44,988 nt of DNA from a virus (taxonomy: Duplodnaviria > Heunggongvirae > Uroviricota > Caudoviricetes), in the IMG/VR virus record IMGVR_UViG_643348544_000004; one strand, given 5' to 3'. Position 1 is the stretch's first letter, and each line of letters starts with the position of its first letter. The notes below the pieces were generated by a model. The model had not been told where the DNA came from. It did no database searches and was given only the letters and a program-made list of their open reading frames with translations. A program made the position numbers and the translations under genes. Shown here piece after piece: positions 5,578-17,744 of the stretch.

Positions 5578-5985
5578 TTATTTATTTGCGCTTCTTTTGC
5601 GAGCTTTGAGTAGTTCTTCAAAAAGTTTGTTGAAATTCTCAACTCGAGCACGCATCTCTGACAACAGAGCCTTTTGCTCTGACTCAGGCAGTGCGTCGAA
5701 CAGTTGAAGCAACTCTTTTTGATCTTCTGTCAGATTAACTGGCTGATTATCTGGGATCGGTTCGCCTGGTTGCTTATCTTCATCTCCAAAAAGAAGCCAA
5801 GTCGGCGAGCACTGAAGCGCCTGGCTCAGTGCGAATAATCTCTTCCCCGCTGGCTGTGTTTCATCTCTTTCCCATTGAGAAATTGTTACGTGAGCCACTT
5901 TGACCAGCTTACCTAATGCGGCCTGAGACAGTTTTAATTTTTTACGCCTGTATAAGAGGCGAGCACCGAAGGTTTCGTTTTTCAT
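5578..5985 (-). CDS. dicA: DicA-like HTH (XRE-family) repressor, 135 aa
   Basis: Same length as E. coli DicA and strongly similar from memory (LFALSQALQCSPTWLLFGDEDKQP..., EMRARVENFNKLFEELLKARKR); divergent from a dicC-like gene. Confidence 0.85.
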   Translation of the reverse strand: MKNETFGARLLYRRKKLKLSQAALGKLVKVAHVTISQWERDETQPAGKRLFALSQALQCSPTWLLFGDEDKQPGEPIPDNQPVNLTEDQKELLQLFDALPESEQKALLSEMRARVENFNKLFEELLKARKRSANK

Positions 5986-6824: not shown

Positions 6825-7836
6825 AAAGGTGAAAACCGGCAGTTCATCCAGTAAGTCTGTATTGACCTGGCTTGCTGATATGTGCGGTGCCGATTTGTGT
6901 GCATACCCGTCTGTATCTGCACTGGCAGAAGTAACGGAACTAAACAAAAAGACTGTGCAGGACAGCTTACGACACCTGATGGAGATTGGGTTAATTGTTG
7001 ATACCGGTGAGAGAAAAGGCAGAACAAAGCAAATTGTGGTGTACCGACTTATCGGTGTAGAAGAAAGTGTTGCCGAGCCTGAATACACCCAAAAACGGGA
7101 GTCTTTAAAGGTGGGTAAAATTGGTGCTGTTAATAAAAACAGTACCGAAAATGGTTATGTTTCAGCACAAAACAGACCCAAAAACGGAACTCTTAGCTGC
7201 ATGGAAAATAACCAAAGACACCCAAATTTTCCATCAAAGACACCCAAAAACGGATCACGGAACCCAAAGGAACCCAAAGATCTAAACCCCACACATAACG
7301 CACGCGAGAGTGCTCCGACCAGTGAGCAGGAAGTTTTGTCGTTACAGGCAGCACCCCTTGTATTCCTGGATGGCCTGAGCGAACCCATCGGAAAATTTCC
7401 GATGACCGATAGCTGGTATCCGTCACGGGATTTTCGACGACGGGCTGCGTTGTGGGGGATGGCTTTGCCGGAGACAGAATTTACACCTGCTGAACTTGCC
7501 GCCTTCCGGGACTACTGGGCAGCGGAGGGGAAAGTGTTTACGCAGATTCAGTGGGAGCAGAAATTCGCCCGTCACGTAAATCACGTCAGGGCGCAGGTTA
7601 AACCAGTCAGCAAGGGGGTAAACCATGCAGCAGCACCAGGTGGCACCGCATCACGGGCAGTTCAGGAAATTCGGGCAGCACGTGAGCAGTGGGAACGTGA
7701 AAACGGATTTATCAGCGACGGAAACGGTCTGGAAGCTGTGGGAGCTTATGGGGGAGGTGTATTCGAACCGCTGGACACAGAAGAACGGGGCCGCACCTTC
7801 GAAGCTCTGGATTGCCCAGATTGGCGCGATGACTGA
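6796..7836 (+). CDS. Replication initiator (O-like), N-terminal winged HTH, iterons inside gene, 346 aa
   Basis: Start MSIDALRWAKK chosen within the 371-aa frame; HTH-type N-terminus; internal iteron-like repeats; followed by a P-like gene whose candidate start overlaps its stop (ATGACTGA). Confidence 0.65.
   Translation: MSIDALRWAKKVKTGSSSSKSVLTWLADMCGADLCAYPSVSALAEVTELNKKTVQDSLRHLMEIGLIVDTGERKGRTKQIVVYRLIGVEESVAEPEYTQKRESLKVGKIGAVNKNSTENGYVSAQNRPKNGTLSCMENNQRHPNFPSKTPKNGSRNPKEPKDLNPTHNARESAPTSEQEVLSLQAAPLVFLDGLSEPIGKFPMTDSWYPSRDFRRRAALWGMALPETEFTPAELAAFRDYWAAEGKVFTQIQWEQKFARHVNHVRAQVKPVSKGVNHAAAPGGTASRAVQEIRAAREQWERENGFISDGNGLEAVGAYGGGVFEPLDTEERGRTFEALDCPDWRDD
7177..7280. repeat. Iteron-like direct repeats (CCCAAAAACGGA x2, AAAGACACCCAAA x2, GAACCCAAAG x2): candidate replication origin
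   Basis: Read directly from sequence within the O-like gene, analogous to lambda ori lying inside O. Confidence 0.4.
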
Positions 7837-8290
7837 ACAGCAAATCCGGCTGGTCTGCCGTCAGTGCATGGACCGCTGCCGGGCGGGTGAAACGTGGCCC
7901 CCGGACCTGGCTGAGTTTGTTGCACTGATTTCGGAGAGTGGGGCAAATCCATTTGGTCTTACGGTGGATGCAGTGATGGAAGAGTACCGGCGCTGGCGCA
8001 ATGAATCCTGGCGATACGACGGGAGTGATAAATACCCGTGGCCACAGCCTGTGCTGTACCACATCTGCCTCGAAATGCGTACCAGAGGGATTGAGCGCCA
8101 GATGACGCAGGGTGAGTTAAAACGACTTGCGGAACGGCAACTGACGAAATGGGCAAAGCATGTTGGTAACGGGATGAGTGTTCCGCCAGTGCGACGACAA
8201 CTGGAAGGGGCGAAACACCCGCAAGGGCCAACGCCAATTGAACGGCTGAAACAGGAATACGAACGCCGGAAGGCAGCTGGTTTTATTTGA
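7625..8290 (+). CDS. Replication protein P-like (helicase loader); start uncertain (7625, 7751 or 7829)
   Basis: C-terminal two-thirds resembles lambda P from memory (PDLAEFVAL..., YPWPQPVLYHICLEM...); start at 7829 would give ATGACTGA overlap with O-like stop. Confidence 0.6.
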   Translation: MQQHQVAPHHGQFRKFGQHVSSGNVKTDLSATETVWKLWELMGEVYSNRWTQKNGAAPSKLWIAQIGAMTEQQIRLVCRQCMDRCRAGETWPPDLAEFVALISESGANPFGLTVDAVMEEYRRWRNESWRYDGSDKYPWPQPVLYHICLEMRTRGIERQMTQGELKRLAERQLTKWAKHVGNGMSVPPVRRQLEGAKHPQGPTPIERLKQEYERRKAAGFI

Positions 8291-9109: not shown

Positions 9110-9532
9110 ATGGCAAAAGTATTTACACCAGAAGAGCGGGAAAAAATTAAAGGGCAGGTTGTTGAACTCGTACGCCAGAGTGGGCGCGAGACGTTACGAC
9201 AACTGGAAACTAAAACTGGGGAAACAAGATATCTGATGAGCGTTCTGGCCAGAGAGCTGGTTGCCAGTGGCGATGTATACAACTCTGGTTACGGGTTATT
9301 CCCGTCTGAACAGGCGCGTAAGGACTGGCAAAATGCCCGCAAAAAACTCTCAAGGGCAAAGCTGAAGAAACCATCTGTGGTTGATCCGGACCTTATCTGG
9401 CTATTACCTGACGGAGAAATACGTCGCTACGACAGGCGTCAGAACATAATCTGTCGCGAGTGCCGGAAGAGCGAAGTTATGCAGCGCATATTGTCGTTTT
9501 ATCAGGGTAATTTTCAGGAGGTAGCGCAGTGA
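9110..9532 (+). CDS. Hypothetical phage protein, 140 aa
   Basis: GGAGG RBS upstream of ATG 9110; stop overlaps next gene start. Confidence 0.45.
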   Translation: MAKVFTPEEREKIKGQVVELVRQSGRETLRQLETKTGETRYLMSVLARELVASGDVYNSGYGLFPSEQARKDWQNARKKLSRAKLKKPSVVDPDLIWLLPDGEIRRYDRRQNIICRECRKSEVMQRILSFYQGNFQEVAQ

Positions 9533-10017
9533 GTGCACCGGCAACCATTCTTGATATGTGCTGTGGCAGCCGTATGTTCTGGTTCGATAAGAATGACGAC
9601 CGGGCGATATTTAGCGATATCAGAAAAGAAGAGCACACATTGTGTGATGGACGACGCCTGATTATCAGTCCTGACCTGATAGCAGATTTTCGAGCATTAC
9701 CATTTGCAGACGCATCGTTTCCGGTTGTTGTATTCGACCCTCCGCATCTTGAGTGTGTTGGTGATAAAGCCTGGATGGGAAAGAAATATGGACGGTTGAA
9801 TAAAGATACCTGGCGTGATGATTTGCGGCAGGGATTTAAAGAAGCTTTTCGTGTGTTGTGGCCACATGGCGTTCTGATTTTTAAATGGAATGAAACGCAA
9901 ATATCTGTCCGCCAGATATTGGCACTAACCGACGCGAAACCAATCATCAGCCAGCGCACCGGTAAGAACGATAAAACACATTGGATTATTTTTGTGAAGG
10001 AGGCGACCAGTGGGTAA
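9529..10017 (+). CDS. Small putative DNA methyltransferase (SAM-binding ILDMCCGSR motif, DPPH motif), 162 aa, GTG start
   Basis: Motif I-like LDMCCG and motif IV-like FDPPH read in translation; GGAGG RBS; overlaps both neighbours. Confidence 0.5.
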   Translation: MSAPATILDMCCGSRMFWFDKNDDRAIFSDIRKEEHTLCDGRRLIISPDLIADFRALPFADASFPVVVFDPPHLECVGDKAWMGKKYGRLNKDTWRDDLRQGFKEAFRVLWPHGVLIFKWNETQISVRQILALTDAKPIISQRTGKNDKTHWIIFVKEATSG

Positions 10018-10264
10018 ATCAAAATGCCAGGTTTATGGCAACAAGATAGAACCGTGTACGACCCTGGCAAAATCCCTTGAGCATGATGCTGAATACACGA
10101 TGCGAAAAGGTCTGCTGATATACAAAATCTGGAATGAGAGTTTAACTCGCGGTCCTGATTTTGTGATGTTGCGTTCCGGTGAATTTTCTAAATTACCAGT
10201 TCGGGTTTCATTTTGTCCGTTCTGTGGTGAAAGTCTGAAAACGTGGGAGAACAGAAATGAATGA
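10010..10264 (+). CDS. Hypothetical protein with C-terminal CxxC zinc-ribbon-like motif (CPFCG), 84 aa
   Basis: GAAGGAGG RBS before GTG start; overlaps upstream and downstream genes. Confidence 0.4.
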   Translation: MGKSKCQVYGNKIEPCTTLAKSLEHDAEYTMRKGLLIYKIWNESLTRGPDFVMLRSGEFSKLPVRVSFCPFCGESLKTWENRNE

Positions 10265-10568
10265 AATTAAAGAAATACCAGTAGTACGTGATGAATATGG
10301 CTACTGGACGCATCCTGAATATGAAAAATTCTGTGACGGTCGGGAATATATTTCAACGGAAGAGTTTAACGCCTGGATGGAGGAAAATAATCTTCAATAC
10401 GTCCTCTGCTTCAGAGATGAAGGATGTGCTGACCTTGATGCGTGTGATGCTGATATTTCTGCATGGGAACCGGAACGACCAGAGGGCAATGGATGGTTTA
10501 TTGGTTCAATACATGACACCGAAGATGGCCCGGTTTGTGTATGGCTGAGAAATAAGGCCGAAGCATAA
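10257..10568 (+). CDS. Hypothetical phage protein, 103 aa
   Basis: ORF overlapping upstream stop; no recognisable family. Confidence 0.4.
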   Translation: MNEIKEIPVVRDEYGYWTHPEYEKFCDGREYISTEEFNAWMEENNLQYVLCFRDEGCADLDACDADISAWEPERPEGNGWFIGSIHDTEDGPVCVWLRNKAEA

Positions 10569-10696
10569 AGGCTATAAACCGACTAACAACTAAATACTGA
10601 AGATTTAAATCAGAAACGATTTTTATTAAATCCTTAACCGGAGGGATTCCTGCACCCTCAGAACATCAGGAGGCCGTCCGAAAGGGCGGTAGTGAA

Positions 10697-10879
10697 ATGC
10701 GAAAATTCAAAATAATTATTGAAACGGGAATAGCCGGTGGAGATTTCGAGGATGAATTCGAAGTGGATGATGATGCAACACCAGATGAAATACAGGATGA
10801 AGCTAAAGATATTTTCTTTAACTACTGCAATTACTCATACCACGAAATAAAAGACGAAGAGGAAGAACAAAATGGCTGA
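10697..10879 (+). CDS. Small highly acidic protein, 60 aa (about one third D/E)
   Basis: MRKFKIIIETGIAGGDFEDEFEVDDDATPDEIQDEAKD...KDEEEEQNG; charge composition reminiscent of DNA-mimic anti-restriction proteins (inference only). Confidence 0.35.
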   Translation: MRKFKIIIETGIAGGDFEDEFEVDDDATPDEIQDEAKDIFFNYCNYSYHEIKDEEEEQNG

Positions 10880-11048
10880 TTTTGGTTCAACTAAATACAA
10901 CGTCAGTTTTGAAGCATGGCATGAACTGTTAATGGACTATGCAGAGTTACGTGGTGGCAGTGCTGCTGATGCTGAAGCATGGCGTGATGATTATGAAGCA
11001 GGAAAAACTCCGGTCGAAGCATATTGTGATGAGTGGGGCGATGAATGA
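10872..11048 (+). CDS. Small acidic protein, 58 aa (MADFGSTKYNVSFEAWHELLMDYAELRGG...)
   Basis: Below track cutoff; manual translation; overlaps neighbours at both ends. Confidence 0.3.
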   Translation: MADFGSTKYNVSFEAWHELLMDYAELRGGSAADAEAWRDDYEAGKTPVEAYCDEWGDE

Positions 11049-11560
11049 GCGAGATTAATTATCAGGAAGGGCATGAAACGGCAGGGCAGGCAAAAACAGT
11101 GGCATGGCGATATCGCTACGTGAAAAAAGACGTTACAGACTTTCAGGGGAAGCCGTGGGCTGGTGACTGGAAATATGTACCGACAAAAGAGGATTGTAAC
11201 GACAGGCCGAACTATGAAATTCAGGCCTTATTCATCGGCCCGCCAGTCCCGGTGACATCAGAAGGACTGGTTAAAGCCGTGCGCTTTTATGAACAGGTAA
11301 AGCGTGAGAATCCGCCAGTCGAAACAGGAGCATGGAAGGATGCTGTTGACTGGGTGCTCAGAGAGGCCTGCTGCGCTGCCATTCTGGGTAAAGCCGACAA
11401 TCCACCAGCATCCGGCAATCAGGTTAGCGAATTAACAATGTGGGTTAAACGACTGGTCAGTCAACTGAAAAAAGCTCAGCCGGACTGCAAATTACCGGAG
11501 AAGGCGATGGATTACCTGAAACGAAATGGACTGATAAGCGTGGAGGATGTTTTACGATGA
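11045..11560 (+). CDS. Hypothetical phage protein, 171 aa
   Basis: ORF with ATGA overlap to upstream gene; no recognisable family. Confidence 0.45.
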   Translation: MSEINYQEGHETAGQAKTVAWRYRYVKKDVTDFQGKPWAGDWKYVPTKEDCNDRPNYEIQALFIGPPVPVTSEGLVKAVRFYEQVKRENPPVETGAWKDAVDWVLREACCAAILGKADNPPASGNQVSELTMWVKRLVSQLKKAQPDCKLPEKAMDYLKRNGLISVEDVLR

Positions 11561-11767
11561 AAATTTAGACTAAAGAGTTTGTAACGCTATGTAAGTGATT
11601 TTTTCTGGTTTAGATATTTATATGTCCGGCCAAATTGAGGTGTGTTTAAATGTTATTGCACATTGATTGTAGGGGGAATAATGAAAAACGCATTGCAGTT
11701 TTTGTTTGTTGCGTTCTGGTTGTTCGCATCATGTATGCCCATCATCTTCACAGCAAGGTATATGGAA

Positions 11768-11776: not shown

Positions 11777-11791
11777 GGTAATGACTCCAAC

Positions 11792-12295
11792 TTATTGATA
11801 GTGTTTTATGTTCAGATAATGCCCGATGACTTTGTCATGCAGCTCCACCGATTTTGAGAACGACAGCGACTTCCGTCCCAGCCGTGCCAGGTGCTGCCTC
11901 AGATTCAGGTTATGCCGCTCAATTCGCTGCGTATATCGCTTGCTGATTACGTGCAGCTTTCCCTTCAGGCGGGATTCATACAGCGGCCAGCCATCCGTCA
12001 TCCATATCACCACGTCAAAGGGTGACAGCAGGCTCATAAGACGCCCCAGCGTCGCCATCGTGCGTTCACCGAATACGTGCGCAACAACCGTCTTCCGGAG
12101 CCTGTCATACGCGTAAAACAGCCAGCGCTGGCGCGATTTAGCCCCGACATAGCCCCACTGTTCGTCCATTTCCGCGCAGACGATGACGTCACTGCCCGGC
12201 TGTATGCGCGAGGTTACCGACTGCGGCCTGAGTTTTTTAAGTGACGTAAAATCGTGTTGAGGCCAACGCCCATAATGCGGGCAGTTGCCCGGCAT
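11792..12295 (-). CDS. insB: IS1 InsB (transposase frame; expressed as InsAB' by -1 frameshift), 167 aa
   Basis: Canonical IS1 InsB sequence; overlaps insA 3' end. Confidence 0.9.
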
Positions 12296-12489
12296 CCAAC
12301 GCCATTCATGGCCATATCAATGATTTTCTGGTGCGTACCGGGTTGAGAAGCGGTGTAAGTGAACTGCAGTTGCCATGTTTTACGGCAGTGAGAGCAGAGA
12401 TAGCGCTGATGTCCGGCGGTGCTTTTGCCGTTACGCACCACCCCGTCAGTAGCTGAACAGGAGGGACAGCTGATAGAAACAGAAGCCAC
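12214..12489 (-). CDS. insA: IS1 InsA, 91 aa
   Basis: Sequence [43 protein letters not shown]... is canonical IS1 InsA. Confidence 0.9.
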
Positions 12490-12544
12490 TGGAGCACCTC
12501 AAAAACACCATCATACACTAAATCAGTAAGTTGGCAGCATCACC

Positions 12545-12553: not shown

Positions 12554-12774
12554 GTTTTGATATTAATGTTTGGACATATAAATGCCCTTTTTTTAGGGGT
12601 GTTCATGGCGGTCATGTGCATTGAATACTGGCGGTAAATACAGCGAACGCCATTGGTTTAGTTGGATATTTACTGTGCCGGACAAAAACGGTTTGCGGGG
12701 AAATCTTAGTTAAGTAGAATAACTGCGGGTGCTTGAGGCTATCTGTCTCAGGCATGAACACCAAAAGGCAGATA

Positions 12775-12846
12775 GAGAAAAGCCCCAGTTAACATTACGC
12801 GTCCTGCAAGACGCTTAACATTAATCTGAGGCCATATCTATGCGAC
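12775..12846 (-). ncRNA. Predicted Sok-like antisense RNA of the hok locus
   Basis: Minus-strand promoter-like -35 TTGACC (12876-12881) and -10 TAATCT (12852-12857) with 18-nt spacer, directing transcription antisense to the hok leader; hairpin plus T-rich tract downstream; prediction only. Confidence 0.3.
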
Positions 12847-12899
12847 ACATAGAGATTAGCCTCTTACGGACCGAAAGGTCAAGGAGAAGCAGGCTATGA
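12840..12899 (+). CDS. Short mok-like leader ORF overlapping hok start (19 codons)
   Basis: ATG at 12840, stop TGA at 12897-12899 overlapping the hok ATG (ATGA); shorter than canonical mok. Confidence 0.25.
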   Translation: MRHIEISLLRTERSRRSRL

Positions 12900-13051
12900 A
12901 GCAGCAAAAGGCGATGTTAATCGCCCTGATCGTCATCTGTTTAACCGTCATAGTGACGGCACTGGTAACGAGGAAAGACCTCTGCGAGGTACGAATCCGA
13001 ACCGGCCAGACGGAGGTCGCTGTCTTCACAGCTTACGAACCTGAGGAGTAA
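12896..13051 (+). CDS. hokD: Hok-family type I toxin (HokD/RelF-like), 51 aa
   Basis: Manual translation MKQQKAMLIALIVICLTVIVTALVTRKDLCEVRIRTGQTEVAVFTAYEPEE matches remembered HokD; below track cutoff. Confidence 0.8.
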   Translation: MKQQKAMLIALIVICLTVIVTALVTRKDLCEVRIRTGQTEVAVFTAYEPEE

Positions 13052-13120
13052 GAGACCCGGCGAGGGAGAAATCCCTCGCCACCTCTGATGTGGCAGGCAT
13101 TCTCAACGCACCCGCACTTA

Positions 13121-13150
13121 ACCCGCTTCGGCGGGTTTTTGTTTTTATTT
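13121..13150 (+). terminator. Rho-independent terminator after hok (ACCCGCTTCGGCGGGTTTTTGTTTTT)
   Basis: GC stem CCGC/GCGG with TTCG loop followed by T-run. Confidence 0.6.
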
Positions 13151-14921: not shown

Positions 14922-15302
14922 ATGACCGAGCGCATAGAATTTGTTTTACCTTACCCGCCGACGGTGAACACTTACTGGCGACGCCGTGGCAGCACATATT
15001 TTATCTCGGAGGAGGGAAAGCGTTATCGCCGGGCTGTGGCGCTTATTGTTCGCCAGCAGCGGCTGAAATTAAGCCTGTCCGGAAGGCTGGCGATAAAGGT
15101 GATTGCAGAGCCACCGGATAAGCGTCGTCGCGACCTGGACAATATCCTGAAAGCACCGCTGGATGCGCTGACGCATGCGGGAGTGTTAATGGACGATGAG
15201 CAGTTTGATGAAATCAATATCGTTCGTGGTCAGCCAGTATCTGGTGGACGTATGGGGGTGAAGATTTACCCCATAATGCTTGAAGGGCAGGTCAAAAAAT
15301 GA
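14922..15302 (+). CDS. rusA: RusA Holliday-junction resolvase, 126 aa
   Basis: Pattern ...LPYPPTVNTYW...DKRRRDLDNILKAPLDALTHAGVLMDDEQF matches RusA family from memory. Confidence 0.8.
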   Translation: MTERIEFVLPYPPTVNTYWRRRGSTYFISEEGKRYRRAVALIVRQQRLKLSLSGRLAIKVIAEPPDKRRRDLDNILKAPLDALTHAGVLMDDEQFDEINIVRGQPVSGGRMGVKIYPIMLEGQVKK

Positions 15303-16120
15303 AACTGGAAGATTTACCGAAATACTACTCCCCAAAATCCCCCGGCCTGACTGATGCATCGGCCTCAACGTCAAAAGATGCGCTGAGTATCACTGATGTG
15401 ATGGCCGCGCAGGGCATGACACAGAATCGGGCTGAGATGGGGTTTTCTGCGTTCCTGGGGAAAATGGGCATCAGTATGAATGACAGGGCGCGGGCAACAG
15501 AATTACTGGCAGATTATGCACTCAGTCGGTGCGATCGTGTGGCGGCGTTGAGAAAACTCCCGGCAGAAATAAAACCGGTAGTGATGCGCATTATGGCTTC
15601 GTACGCTTTTGAGGATTATGCCCGCAGCGCAGCGAGTAAAAAGCAGTGCCCTTGTTGCTATGGGGAAAAATTTATTGAAAGCGTAGTTTTTACAAACAAG
15701 GTCCAGTATCCGGATGGTAAGCCGCCGGTATGGGCAAAGTGTACGAAAGGTGTGTATCCGTCTTACTGGGAAGAATGGAAAAAAGTCAGGGAGGTGGTAA
15801 AAGTTGCCTGTCCGGAGTGTGGCGGAAAGGGTGAGGTTTCCACCGCCTGTAAGGATTGCCGTGGGCGTGGTGTCGCCATTCATCGTGAAGAGTCGGTAAA
15901 ACGTGGTATGCCTGTTATCAGAGATTGCCAGCGTTGTGGTGGTCGTGGCTGTGAAAGGCTGCCATCAACGGAGGCATTTAATGCCATATGCAAAGTGACG
16001 AGTGCTATCACGCTTGATACGTGGAAAAAATCAGTGAAACGCTTTTACGATACGTTGGTGGTTCGGTTTGACATTGAAGAGGCATGGGCGGAGCGGCAGT
16101 TAAAGAGGGTAACGCGATAG
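15299..16120 (+). CDS. Late-gene antiterminator Q (phage-82/Quu type), 273 aa
   Basis: Cys-rich zinc-binding region (CPCCYGEK, CPECGGKGE, CKDCRGRG, CQRCGGRG); position immediately upstream of a promoter/terminator pair and the lysis genes. Confidence 0.75.
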   Translation: MKLEDLPKYYSPKSPGLTDASASTSKDALSITDVMAAQGMTQNRAEMGFSAFLGKMGISMNDRARATELLADYALSRCDRVAALRKLPAEIKPVVMRIMASYAFEDYARSAASKKQCPCCYGEKFIESVVFTNKVQYPDGKPPVWAKCTKGVYPSYWEEWKKVREVVKVACPECGGKGEVSTACKDCRGRGVAIHREESVKRGMPVIRDCQRCGGRGCERLPSTEAFNAICKVTSAITLDTWKKSVKRFYDTLVVRFDIEEAWAERQLKRVTR

Positions 16121-16694: not shown

Positions 16695-17744
16695 ATGCTT
16701 AATACTGTAAAAATATCCAGTTGTGAGTTAATCAACGCCGACTGCCTGGAATTTATCCGGTCGTTACCCGAAAATTCTGTTGACCTGATAGTCACGGACC
16801 CGCCGTACTTTAAAGTGAAGCCTGAGGGCTGGGATAACCAGTGGAAGGGCGACGATGATTACCTGAAGTGGCTGGACCAGTGTCTGGCGCAGTTCTGGCG
16901 GGTGCTGAAACCTGCCGGAAGTCTTTACCTGTTCTGTGGTCATCGCCTGGCATCTGATATCGAAATCATGATGCGTGAACGCTTCAGTGTGCTGAACCAT
17001 ATTATCTGGGCGAAGCCGTCCGGACGCTGGAACGGATGCAACAAGGAAAGCCTGCGGGCGTATTTCCCCGCCACAGAGCGCATTCTGTTCGCGGAACATT
17101 ATCAGGGGCCGTATCGTCCGAAAGATGCCGGGTATGCGGCGAAGGGCAGTGCACTGAAACAGCATGTGATAGCCCCGCTGATTTCTTACTTTCGTGATGC
17201 GCGCGCGGCCCTGGGGATAACGGCAAAACAGATTGCAGATGCCACAGGAAAGAAAAACATGGTGTCGCACTGGTTCAGTGCCAGTCAGTGGCAGCTACCG
17301 AACGAAAGCGATTATCTGAAATTACAGTCGCTGTTTGCCCGGGTGGCAGAAGAGAAACATCAGCGCGGTGAACTGGAAAAGCCCCACCACCAGCTGGTGG
17401 ATACGTATACGTCACTGAACCGGCAGTATGTGGAGCTGCAGAGTGAATATAAGCATCTGCGGCGGTATTTTGGTGTGACGGCGCAGGTGCCGTACACGGA
17501 TGTGTGGACACATAAACCGGTGCAGTTCTATCCCGGGAAACATCCGTGCGAAAAACCGGCAGAAATGCTGCAGCAGATAATCAGCGCAAGCAGTCGTCCG
17601 GGTGACCTGGTTGCAGATTTTTTTATGGGCTCAGGTTCAACGGTAAAAGCTGCACTGGCGCTCGGGCGTCGTGCGATTGGCGTTGAACTGGAGACCGGAC
17701 GTTTTGAGCAGACAGTCAGGGAAGTTCAGGATTTAATCGTTTGA
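16695..17744 (+). CDS. Orphan DNA methyltransferase (N6-adenine/N4-cytosine class, DPPY motif), 349 aa
   Basis: VTDPPYF catalytic motif and FxGxG-type SAM motif (DFFMGSGST) read in translation; no adjacent restriction endonuclease gene. Confidence 0.8.
   Translation: MLNTVKISSCELINADCLEFIRSLPENSVDLIVTDPPYFKVKPEGWDNQWKGDDDYLKWLDQCLAQFWRVLKPAGSLYLFCGHRLASDIEIMMRERFSVLNHIIWAKPSGRWNGCNKESLRAYFPATERILFAEHYQGPYRPKDAGYAAKGSALKQHVIAPLISYFRDARAALGITAKQIADATGKKNMVSHWFSASQWQLPNESDYLKLQSLFARVAEEKHQRGELEKPHHQLVDTYTSLNRQYVELQSEYKHLRRYFGVTAQVPYTDVWTHKPVQFYPGKHPCEKPAEMLQQIISASSRPGDLVADFFMGSGSTVKAALALGRRAIGVELETGRFEQTVREVQDLIV

What the first reader, a model, noticed from the sequence alone, without database searches (positions are those of the whole stretch)
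10697..11048. Two consecutive small, strongly acidic proteins in the early region (possible DNA mimics)
The 60-aa ORF is about one third Asp/Glu (DFEDEFEVDDDATPDEIQDEAKD...KDEEEEQNG) and the overlapping 58-aa ORF is about one quarter acidic. Small acidic early-phage proteins are a hallmark of DNA-mimic anti-restriction and anti-defence factors. They sit just downstream of a tightly coupled block that includes a small methyltransferase.
Basis: inference. Interest (0 to 1): 0.5.

Follow-up and report, generated by a model that had tools for sequence, protein, structure and literature searches.

The report
Two small acidic prophage accessory proteins
Two overlapping genes in an E. coli lambda-like prophage encode tiny, well-folded, very acidic proteins from two widespread but uncharacterised phage and plasmid families; they are reasonable candidates for inhibitors of DNA-binding proteins, but nothing here shows that they mimic DNA or block restriction.

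Summary
ORF A (10697-10879, 60 aa, 33% Asp/Glu, net -15) and ORF B (10872-11048, 58 aa, 26% Asp/Glu, net -11) overlap and are translationally coupled. They are the two most acidic of 292 mechanical ORFs in the window. The third most acidic, orf103, lies just upstream.

ORF A belongs to Pfam DUF7167 / phrog_1997. ORF B matches phrog_519. Both give confident compact AlphaFold models: a beta-grasp/GB1-like mini-fold for ORF A and a three-helix bundle for ORF B. Acidic positions are conserved across each family.

The window is a lambdoid prophage, and the pair sits in the dispensable nin-type region between replication gene P and antiterminator Q. The leader+A+B module occurs in 1744 of 5426 complete E. 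coli genomes. More distant relatives of the two families occur separately, so they are independent genes.

No sequence, profile or fold similarity to Ocr, ArdA, Gp2 or any other solved protein was found, and no paper mentions either family. The neighbouring methyltransferase is not a conserved partner (1 of 80 loci).

My best reading is that each protein is an independent, stoichiometric acidic inhibitor of a basic, nucleic-acid-binding surface, target unknown. The DNA-mimic anti-restriction idea stays possible but untested. Interest is modest.

The parts
10629..10696 (+). A 68-nt leader that travels with ORF A. It holds two predicted hairpins. The second (GCCGUCC-GAAA-GGGCGGU, about 10675-10692) sits between an AGGAGG motif and the AUG.
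   Evidence: The sequence is conserved in related loci whatever lies further upstream, and the mosaic junction falls about 68 nt before the AUG. The RNA fold gives -21.4 kcal/mol, z = -1.6, which is not significant on its own. One U-to-C variant turns a G.U pair into G-C, and a shorter GCCC-GAAA-GGGC stem persists where the upstream sequence differs.
10697..10879 (+). ORF A: a 60-aa DUF7167 / phrog_1997 protein with net charge -15. The predicted layout is a beta-hairpin (residues 2-8 and 17-23), a helix (29-43), an ordered C-terminal segment (44-52) and a disordered acidic tail (53-60).
10872..11048 (+). ORF B: a 58-aa phrog_519-type protein with net charge -11. The prediction is a three-helix bundle (residues 13-27, 34-42, 47-55) carrying the conserved motif GGSAADAxAWRxDYxxGKTPxxAxxDEWG.
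   Evidence: Its Shine-Dalgarno sequence (GAGGA) lies inside the codons of ORF A's acidic tail.
10257..10568 (+). orf103: a third acidic protein (103 aa, 24% D/E, net -17; phrog_1372). It is a separate mosaic module just upstream and was not part of the original finding.
   Evidence: It is present upstream of ORF A in only 18 of 80 close loci.
11045..11560 (+). orf171 (phrog_660): the downstream gene, coupled to ORF B through an ATGA overlap. In phage ArgO145 an 'ead/Ea22-like family protein' annotation lies under the ORF B match beside two hypothetical proteins; it is probably this gene's homologue.
   Evidence: It follows ORF B in 57 of 80 close loci.

Best explanation
ORF A and ORF B are two unrelated, independently mobile accessory genes of a lambdoid prophage. 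They are probably transcribed with the delayed-early rightward operon, between replication gene P and antiterminator Q, and they are translationally coupled.

Each encodes a compact single-domain mini-protein. ORF A has a beta-grasp/GB1-like fold and ORF B is a three-helix bundle. In both, the solvent-exposed surface is dominated by conserved carboxylates.

The most likely mode of action is stoichiometric. Each protein would bind, and so block or divert, a positively charged nucleic-acid-binding surface on a host protein or on a protein of a competing mobile element. That is charge mimicry in the broad sense used by small acidic phage inhibitors. The benefit to the phage would be conditional and non-essential. 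The targets are unknown and need not be type I restriction enzymes.

Shown here: the genes, their composition, their family membership, the predicted folds, the conservation of acidic positions, the genomic position, and the independence of the two families. Inferred: the timing of expression, the inhibitor mechanism and the class of target.
For: Composition, with charge density equal to Ocr.

Acidity is conserved across divergent family members and at specific alignment columns. In ORF A these include one face of the helix (residues 30, 31, 34, 35, 38) and the C-terminal tail.

The models are confident, compact folds rather than disordered acidic peptides.

The pair lies between replication P (7625-8290) and antiterminator Q (15299-16120), among other small uncharacterised ORFs. 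No promoter or terminator was predicted inside the module.

Both families occur in many unrelated mobile elements:
- DUF7167 is in lambdoid and P22-like prophages, Guernseyvirinae, Enterococcus Herelleviridae and Phapecoctavirus. It also has fold matches in Lactococcus and Streptomyces phages.
- ORF B is in Ackermannviridae, Lastavirus, Autographiviridae and 561 plasmids, 516 of them conjugative.

The neighbours are nearly always DNA-metabolism or early genes: Dam methyltransferase plus a HOT/theta homologue, an SNF2 helicase, DNA polymerase, and Ead/Ea22.

Very short acidic proteins are known to work this way: sArdN/sArdC (PMC12548430), and T7 Gp2 and phi29 p56 (from my own knowledge).
Against: There is no experimental datum for either family, and no paper was found.

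There is no detectable homology or significant fold match to any characterised inhibitor.

Many of the conserved acidic and polar residues of ORF A can be explained structurally. E22 could pair across strands with K3/K5, and D24-T28-x-x-E31 looks like a helix N-cap (my reading).

A monomer of about 57 residues could imitate only a short stretch of duplex unless it oligomerises. I could not test oligomeric state.

ORF B also lies downstream of a capsid gene and in a plasmid transfer operon. This shows that it is not tied to an early, anti-entry-defence context.
Confidence: 0.4

Rival explanations
1. One reading: one or both proteins are DNA mimics that block type I restriction-modification (or BREX-type) enzymes, as Ocr, ArdA and sArdA do.
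For: ORF A has Ocr-like charge density. Acidic columns are conserved. Roughly one-third-length ArdA fragments are active against EcoKI and EcoR124II (PMC12548430). ORF B is shared between phages and conjugative plasmids. A distant DUF7167 sits directly after a Dam methyltransferase in P22-like prophages, and this window carries two DNA methyltransferases.
Against: There is no similarity to Ocr or ArdA at sequence, profile or fold level. The nin-type position suggests expression after replication genes, which is late for protecting entering DNA. The methyltransferase in this window is upstream in only 1 of 80 close loci. On IncI2 plasmids ORF B is not in the leading region next to oriT/mobC; it heads the T4SS operon.
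Confidence: 0.12
2. The proteins are not anti-defence factors. They are small adaptor or modulator subunits for phage or host DNA replication, recombination or transcription proteins. Lambdoid HOT (a theta homologue) and other nin or ea products are examples of that kind. They would tune the phage's own life cycle.
For: DUF7167 is repeatedly coupled to DNA-metabolism genes. It overlaps the start of an SNF2-family helicase in Guernseyvirinae-type phages, and it sits between Dam and a DNA_pol3_theta homologue in P22-like prophages. It is also next to an annotated exonuclease in Enterococcus phages. ORF B directly follows Ead/Ea22 proteins in four Enterobacter prophage contexts. In phage ArgO145 an ead/Ea22-like gene also adjoins the ORF B match; it is probably the orf171 homologue.
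Against: The neighbours differ between lineages and no single partner gene is conserved. Extreme acidity is not needed for an adaptor role. The families move between very different replication systems.
Confidence: 0.25
3. The ORFs are chance reading frames or decaying remnants with no function.
For: They are very short. In several Stx2a phage records no feature is annotated under the ORF A match.
Against: ORF A scores above the Pfam gathering threshold, and both ORFs match PHROG families. Homologues at 30-60% identity occur in phages of different bacterial phyla with the hydrophobic core conserved. The AlphaFold models are confident. The module is kept in 1744 of 5426 complete E. coli genomes.
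Confidence: 0.03

Closest known systems
T7 Ocr (gp0.3), a DNA-mimic inhibitor of type I R-M, BREX and RNA polymerase
   Same: It is a small phage protein with the same charge density: 29% D/E and -0.24 per residue, against 33% and -0.25 for ORF A. It is likewise an accessory, non-essential function.
   Different: Ocr is 117 aa, all-helical, and an elongated dimer that mimics about 24 bp. It is also the first gene to enter and be expressed. ORF A is a 60-aa alpha/beta mini-domain and ORF B a 58-aa three-helix bundle, and both lie in the P-to-Q region. hhalign probability is below 1%.
ArdA and the short sArdN/sArdC anti-restriction proteins (PMC12548430)
   Same: These show that roughly one-third-length acidic domains can inhibit EcoKI and EcoR124II. 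They are carried by mobile elements.
   Different: sArdA proteins are recognisable homologues of ArdA domains. Neither ORF matches the ArdA Pfam family, and the PDB searches returned no ArdA structure.
Small acidic phage inhibitors with compact folds (T7 Gp2, phi29 p56, Xanthomonas phage Xp10 P7)
Other dispensable nin-region and ea-region ORFs of lambdoid phages (NinB-NinH, Ea22/Ead, HOT)
   Same: They share the genomic compartment, the mosaic module behaviour, the small size and the translational coupling.
   Different: These are different protein families. Neither ORF matched any Nin or Ea Pfam family.

Membership tests
Pfam DUF7167 (PF23768) / PHROG 1997 | A whole-protein score above the curated gathering threshold of the family HMM | tested here: met
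   ORF A scores 54.5 bits against a cut-off of 24.4 (E=1.2e-14), covering residues 2-53 and profile positions 1-60 of 60. It scores E=2.7e-30 on phrog_1997 over the full length.
PHROG 519 (ORF B) | A significant match to the family profile | tested here: met
   E=2e-22, with residues 1-58 aligned to profile positions 76-137 of 143. Nearly all homologues are 50-65 aa stand-alone proteins. ORF B has no Pfam or NCBIfam family.
DNA-mimic proteins (functional class) | High density of Asp/Glu and a low pI | tested here: met
   33% and 26% D/E, with pI 4.05 and 4.06. The trait is family-wide.
DNA-mimic proteins (functional class) | Surface carboxylates arranged with the spacing and helical path of DNA phosphates | not testable with these tools
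   Only the secondary structure and pLDDT of the models are returned, and no coordinates are available. From the sequence, helix residues 30, 31, 34, 35 and 38 form one acidic face. This is suggestive only.
DNA-mimic proteins (functional class) | Binds the DNA-binding site of a target protein in competition with DNA | not testable with these tools
   This needs biochemistry or complex prediction.
Ocr family (T7 gp0.3) | Sequence or profile homology to Ocr | tested here: not met
   hhalign probability is 0.07% for ORF A and 0.08% for ORF B. No Ocr appears in the PDB profile searches at E<=10.
ArdA / sArdN / sArdC | Homology to an ArdA domain (Pfam ArdA; the solved Tn916 ArdA structure) | tested here: not met
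Anti-restriction genes of the Ocr/ArdA type | Located where they are expressed first on entry (the genome end of T7; the leading region of plasmids) | tested here: not met
   In the window the pair lies between P and Q. On IncI2 plasmids ORF B heads the T4SS operon, about 15 kb around the circle from mobC/oriT. In Ackermannviridae it follows the capsid gene.
Known anti-phage defence components (PADLOC) | A match to any defence-system HMM | tested here: not met
   Neither ORF A, ORF B, orf103 nor orf171 gives a hit. Only the 162-aa methyltransferase matches MTase_II/oMTase.

The most novel reading that the evidence does not exclude
DUF7167 would be a previously unrecognised minimal class of nucleic-acid-mimic counter-defence protein: about 57 residues with a beta-grasp/GB1-like fold. 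It is present in about a third of complete E. coli genomes and in virulent phages of both Gram-negative and Gram-positive hosts. The three-helix ORF B family would be a second such class, exchanged between phages and IncI2-type conjugative plasmids. Each would neutralise a DNA-binding immune or nucleoid protein.
Probability: 0.15. Interest if true: 0.6.

Novelty: new member of a known kind. Interest (0 to 1): 0.3.

Why it matters
If either protein proves to be an inhibitor of a host DNA-binding defence or nucleoid protein, it would add a very small and very widespread family to the anti-defence repertoire. The module is in 32% of complete E. coli genomes, in Stx2a-converting phages and, for ORF B, on mcr-1 IncI2 plasmids. 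It would also give a function to Pfam DUF7167. Proteins of about 58 residues with confident predicted folds are easy to express and test, and could be useful as compact blockers of DNA-binding proteins. If they are not inhibitors, the result is only a better annotation of two common hypothetical prophage genes.

Tried and rejected
- **Family libraries.** Pfam, NCBIfam and PADLOC gave no functional family. They returned only DUF7167 for ORF A and nothing for ORF B. PHROGs gave two families of unknown function.
- **PDB sequence search.** Profile searches at E<=10 returned only chance hits: designed repeat proteins, AnkX and SecA.
- **Comparison with T7 proteins.** hhalign against Ocr and Gp2 was negative.
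- **Fusion partners for ORF B.** P0208 (127 aa) looks like a read-through of the upstream DUF1187 gene. P0123 (with an SIS domain) looks like an assembly chimera joined at a shared GGSAADA word. P0253 and P0239 have N-terminal extensions with no significant family.
- **'Exonuclease' neighbour of DUF7167.** In the related Guernseyvirinae-like contig the corresponding downstream gene hits SNF2-family helicase domains, and the neighbour is not conserved across lineages. I therefore rejected the idea that ORF A is a nuclease inhibitor or immunity protein.
- **Obligate A-B pair.** I rejected this. All 80 close loci have A followed by B, but distant DUF7167 genes have no ORF B neighbour, and the ORF B contexts examined show no DUF7167 neighbour.
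- **Leading-region location of ORF B on IncI2 plasmids.** Rejected.
- **Species-representative genomes.** The scan gave only 2 loci, one of them on a probably contaminated MAG contig. Two earlier attempts failed because the alignment lacked a conserved pattern.
- **Literature.** Nothing was found for DUF7167, the accession numbers, the PHROG ids or peptide strings. This includes the supplements of four anti-defence screening papers.

Full report
**What the window is.** The window is a lambdoid E. coli prophage. Reading left to right it holds:
- an 830-aa protein with an Rv2179c-like exonuclease domain, on the minus strand;
- a CI-type repressor (5578-5985, minus strand);
- a DnaT-domain replication protein and replication protein P (7625-8290);
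- DUF1627, DUF977 and a 162-aa orphan-type DNA methyltransferase (9529-10017);
- several small ORFs, an IS1 and a hok/sok locus;
- DUF968, RusA, antiterminator Q (15299-16120) and a second DNA methyltransferase.

A closely related prophage, annotated in RefSeq, shows the same order: integrase, recombination genes, repressor, replication genes, small ORFs, terminase. The finding therefore lies in the nin-type region between P and Q. Such regions are known to be dispensable and mosaic in lambdoid phages; I state this from my own knowledge.

**The observation.** ORF A (10697-10879, 60 aa) and ORF B (10872-11048, 58 aa) are exactly as described.
- ORF A has 20 Asp/Glu against 5 Lys/Arg (net -15, pI 4.05).
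- ORF B has 15 against 4 (net -11, pI 4.06).
- ORF A's charge per residue (-0.25) equals that of T7 Ocr (-0.24).
- The two are the most acidic of all 292 mechanical ORFs of at least 45 aa. The third most acidic is orf103 (10257-10568, net -17), immediately upstream. The acidic cluster is therefore three genes long.
- ORF A and ORF B overlap in ATGGCTGA. ORF B and the next gene, orf171, overlap in ATGA.
- The GAGGA Shine-Dalgarno sequence of ORF B lies within the Glu codons of ORF A's tail.

**They are real genes from two unrelated families.** ORF A passes the Pfam threshold for DUF7167 (54.5 bits against 24.4) and matches phrog_1997. ORF B matches the C-terminal half of phrog_519 and has no Pfam or NCBIfam family.

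Homologues of ORF A at 30-70% identity occur in:
- Klebsiella, Citrobacter and Yersinia prophages;
- Klebsiella Guernseyvirinae;
- Enterococcus Herelleviridae;
- Phapecoctavirus and a Pseudomonas phage.

Foldseek also finds matching models of about 57 aa in Lactococcus phage 949 and a Streptomyces phage.

Homologues of ORF B occur in Ackermannviridae, Lastavirus and an Autographiviridae phage. They also occur in 561 plasmids, 516 of them conjugative; the 86%-identical copies listed are on IncI2-size (about 60 kb) plasmids, one of them an mcr-1 carrier. An exhaustive search of 1.84 billion representative proteins found only 69 ORF B family representatives. Nearly all are stand-alone proteins of 50-65 aa.

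**Structure.** With a 69-sequence alignment, AlphaFold2 gives ORF A a mean pLDDT of 88.7. The model has a beta-hairpin (residues 2-8 and 17-23), a helix (29-43) and an ordered C-terminal segment (mean pLDDT 90 for residues 41-50). The last residues form a low-confidence acidic tail. ORF B (18 sequences) gives pLDDT 83.6 and a three-helix bundle.

- ORF B's best matches are generic helical subdomains (GluRS, AAA+ lids, UBA).
- No classical DNA mimic is in either top 60.

Column statistics show that acidity is conserved by position. In DUF7167, columns 9, 19, 22, 24-26, 30, 31, 34, 38, 50 and 54-56 are at least 70% acidic, and family members average 30% D/E and net -12.7. ORF B has conserved D33, E35, D40, E42, D53 and E54 alongside an aromatic core of W16, W37, Y41 and W55. 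Some of the conserved acidic residues in ORF A look structural, such as a cross-strand pair and a helix N-cap. This is my own reading.

**Linkage and context.** In all 80 close relatives fetched from IMG/VR, ORF A is followed directly by ORF B. What lies upstream varies: DUF977 directly, or orf84-orf103. The methyltransferase of this window is upstream in only 1 of 80.

A 68-nt leader before ORF A is conserved whatever lies beyond it. The leader+A+B module is present at 80% coverage or more in 1744 of 5426 complete E. coli genomes, with up to six matching places in one genome.

More distant family members are not linked to each other.
- DUF7167 sits between a Dam methyltransferase and a theta/HOT homologue in the early-left operon of P22-like prophages.
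- It overlaps the start of an SNF2-family helicase in Guernseyvirinae-type phages.
- It lies inside a Ter-like gene cluster in Phapecoctavirus.
- In a Klebsiella lambdoid phage its downstream neighbour is unrelated to ORF B.
- ORF B follows an Ead/Ea22 gene in Enterobacter prophages, in either the left or the right early operon.
- ORF B follows the capsid gene in Ackermannviridae.
- On IncI2 plasmids it sits after a CaiF/GrlA regulator and DUF1187 at the head of the T4SS operon, away from mobC/oriT.

The two genes are therefore independent modules that happen to travel together in one E. coli prophage lineage.

**Tests of the DNA-mimic / anti-restriction reading.** These tests were negative:
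- the Pfam scan;
- PDB-wide profile searches at E<=10;
- hhalign against T7 Ocr and Gp2, with probabilities below 1%;
- PADLOC.

No paper in the library mentions DUF7167, the accession numbers or the peptide strings. The supplements of four anti-defence screening papers do not contain these sequences either.

In favour, a 2025 study shows that ArdA fragments of about one-third length (sArdN, sArdC) protect lambda against EcoKI and EcoR124II. Small size alone is therefore not an objection (PMC12548430).

The defining features of a DNA mimic are a phosphate-like charge array and competitive binding to a DNA-binding site.

**Verdict.** The composition claim is confirmed and is stronger than stated: there are three acidic genes, and the acidity is conserved across each family. 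The functional claim remains an open hypothesis.

The best-supported mechanism is generic. Each protein would be an independent, stoichiometric, acidic inhibitor or decoy for a basic nucleic-acid-binding surface (confidence about 0.4). Specific type I anti-restriction is a minority possibility (about 0.12). A role as a modulator of replication or recombination proteins is a serious rival (about 0.25).

The genes themselves are common, already-catalogued hypothetical proteins. Any novelty would come only from establishing a function.

Noticed in passing
window 10257-10568 (+): orf103 (phrog_1372) is a third strongly acidic protein (24% D/E, net -17, rich in Trp/Tyr/Cys), directly upstream of the pair. 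The three most acidic ORFs of the window are consecutive.
   Followed up: partly
window 10629-10696 (+): A conserved 68-nt leader precedes ORF A. An AGGAGG motif lies 24 nt before the AUG, separated from it by a GCCGUCC-GAAA-GGGCGGU hairpin. The hairpin could either bring the Shine-Dalgarno sequence close to the start codon, as reported for T4 gene 38, or hide an alternative GGGCGG Shine-Dalgarno sequence. One U-to-C variant strengthens a pair. The leader alone also occurs upstream of a DUF4014 gene in an O157:H7 genome (H130).
   Followed up: partly
window 10858-10879 (+): The Glu codons of ORF A's acidic tail (GAAGAGGAAGAA) also form the Shine-Dalgarno sequence of ORF B. The tail is acidic in family members that have no ORF B downstream as well, so this dual use is not the sole reason for it.
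   Followed up: partly
window 11777-12544: A complete 768-bp IS1 (InsA/InsB ORFs on the minus strand; an exact terminal inverted repeat at 12522-12544). It is inserted into a small membrane-protein ORF that starts near 11663.
   Followed up: partly
window 12727-13051 (+): A hok/sok-type toxin-antitoxin locus. The Rfam sok match (12727-12898) scores 106.7 bits, and a 51-aa Hok-like ORF lies at 12896-13051. A strong terminator-like hairpin follows at 13120-13137.
   Followed up: no
window 9529-10017 and 16695-17744 (+): The prophage carries two DNA methyltransferases. One is a 162-aa orphan-type enzyme (PADLOC MTase_II/oMTase, phrog_954). The other is a 349-aa N6_N4_Mtase downstream of Q. Self-methylation is therefore a likely anti-restriction strategy of this phage, independent of the acidic ORFs.
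   Followed up: no
L012 1298-1474 / L107 (IncI2 plasmid pHLJ109-92, NZ_MN232203.1): An 86%-identical copy of ORF B sits on IncI2 mcr-1 plasmids in a DUF1187-ORF B cassette. The cassette follows a CaiF/GrlA-type regulator at the head of the SPFH/NfeD/T4SS operon. This points to recent exchange between prophages and plasmids.
   Followed up: partly
Stx2a phage records LC645438, LC645442, LC645443, LC645446 (hits H21-H24): In these Stx2a-converting phage records no feature is annotated under the 98%-identical ORF A match.
   Followed up: no
protein P0123 (84 aa, ENA contig of 667 nt): An apparent SIS-domain/ORF B hybrid, joined exactly at the shared peptide GGSAADA. It is most likely an assembly chimera and not a real fusion.
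   Followed up: partly
L101 and L006 (Phapecoctavirus): In Phapecoctavirus-type phages the DUF7167 homologue lies inside a cluster of tellurite-resistance-like genes (TerC, TelA, vWA-TerF-like, TerD). This is an unexplained context.
   Followed up: no
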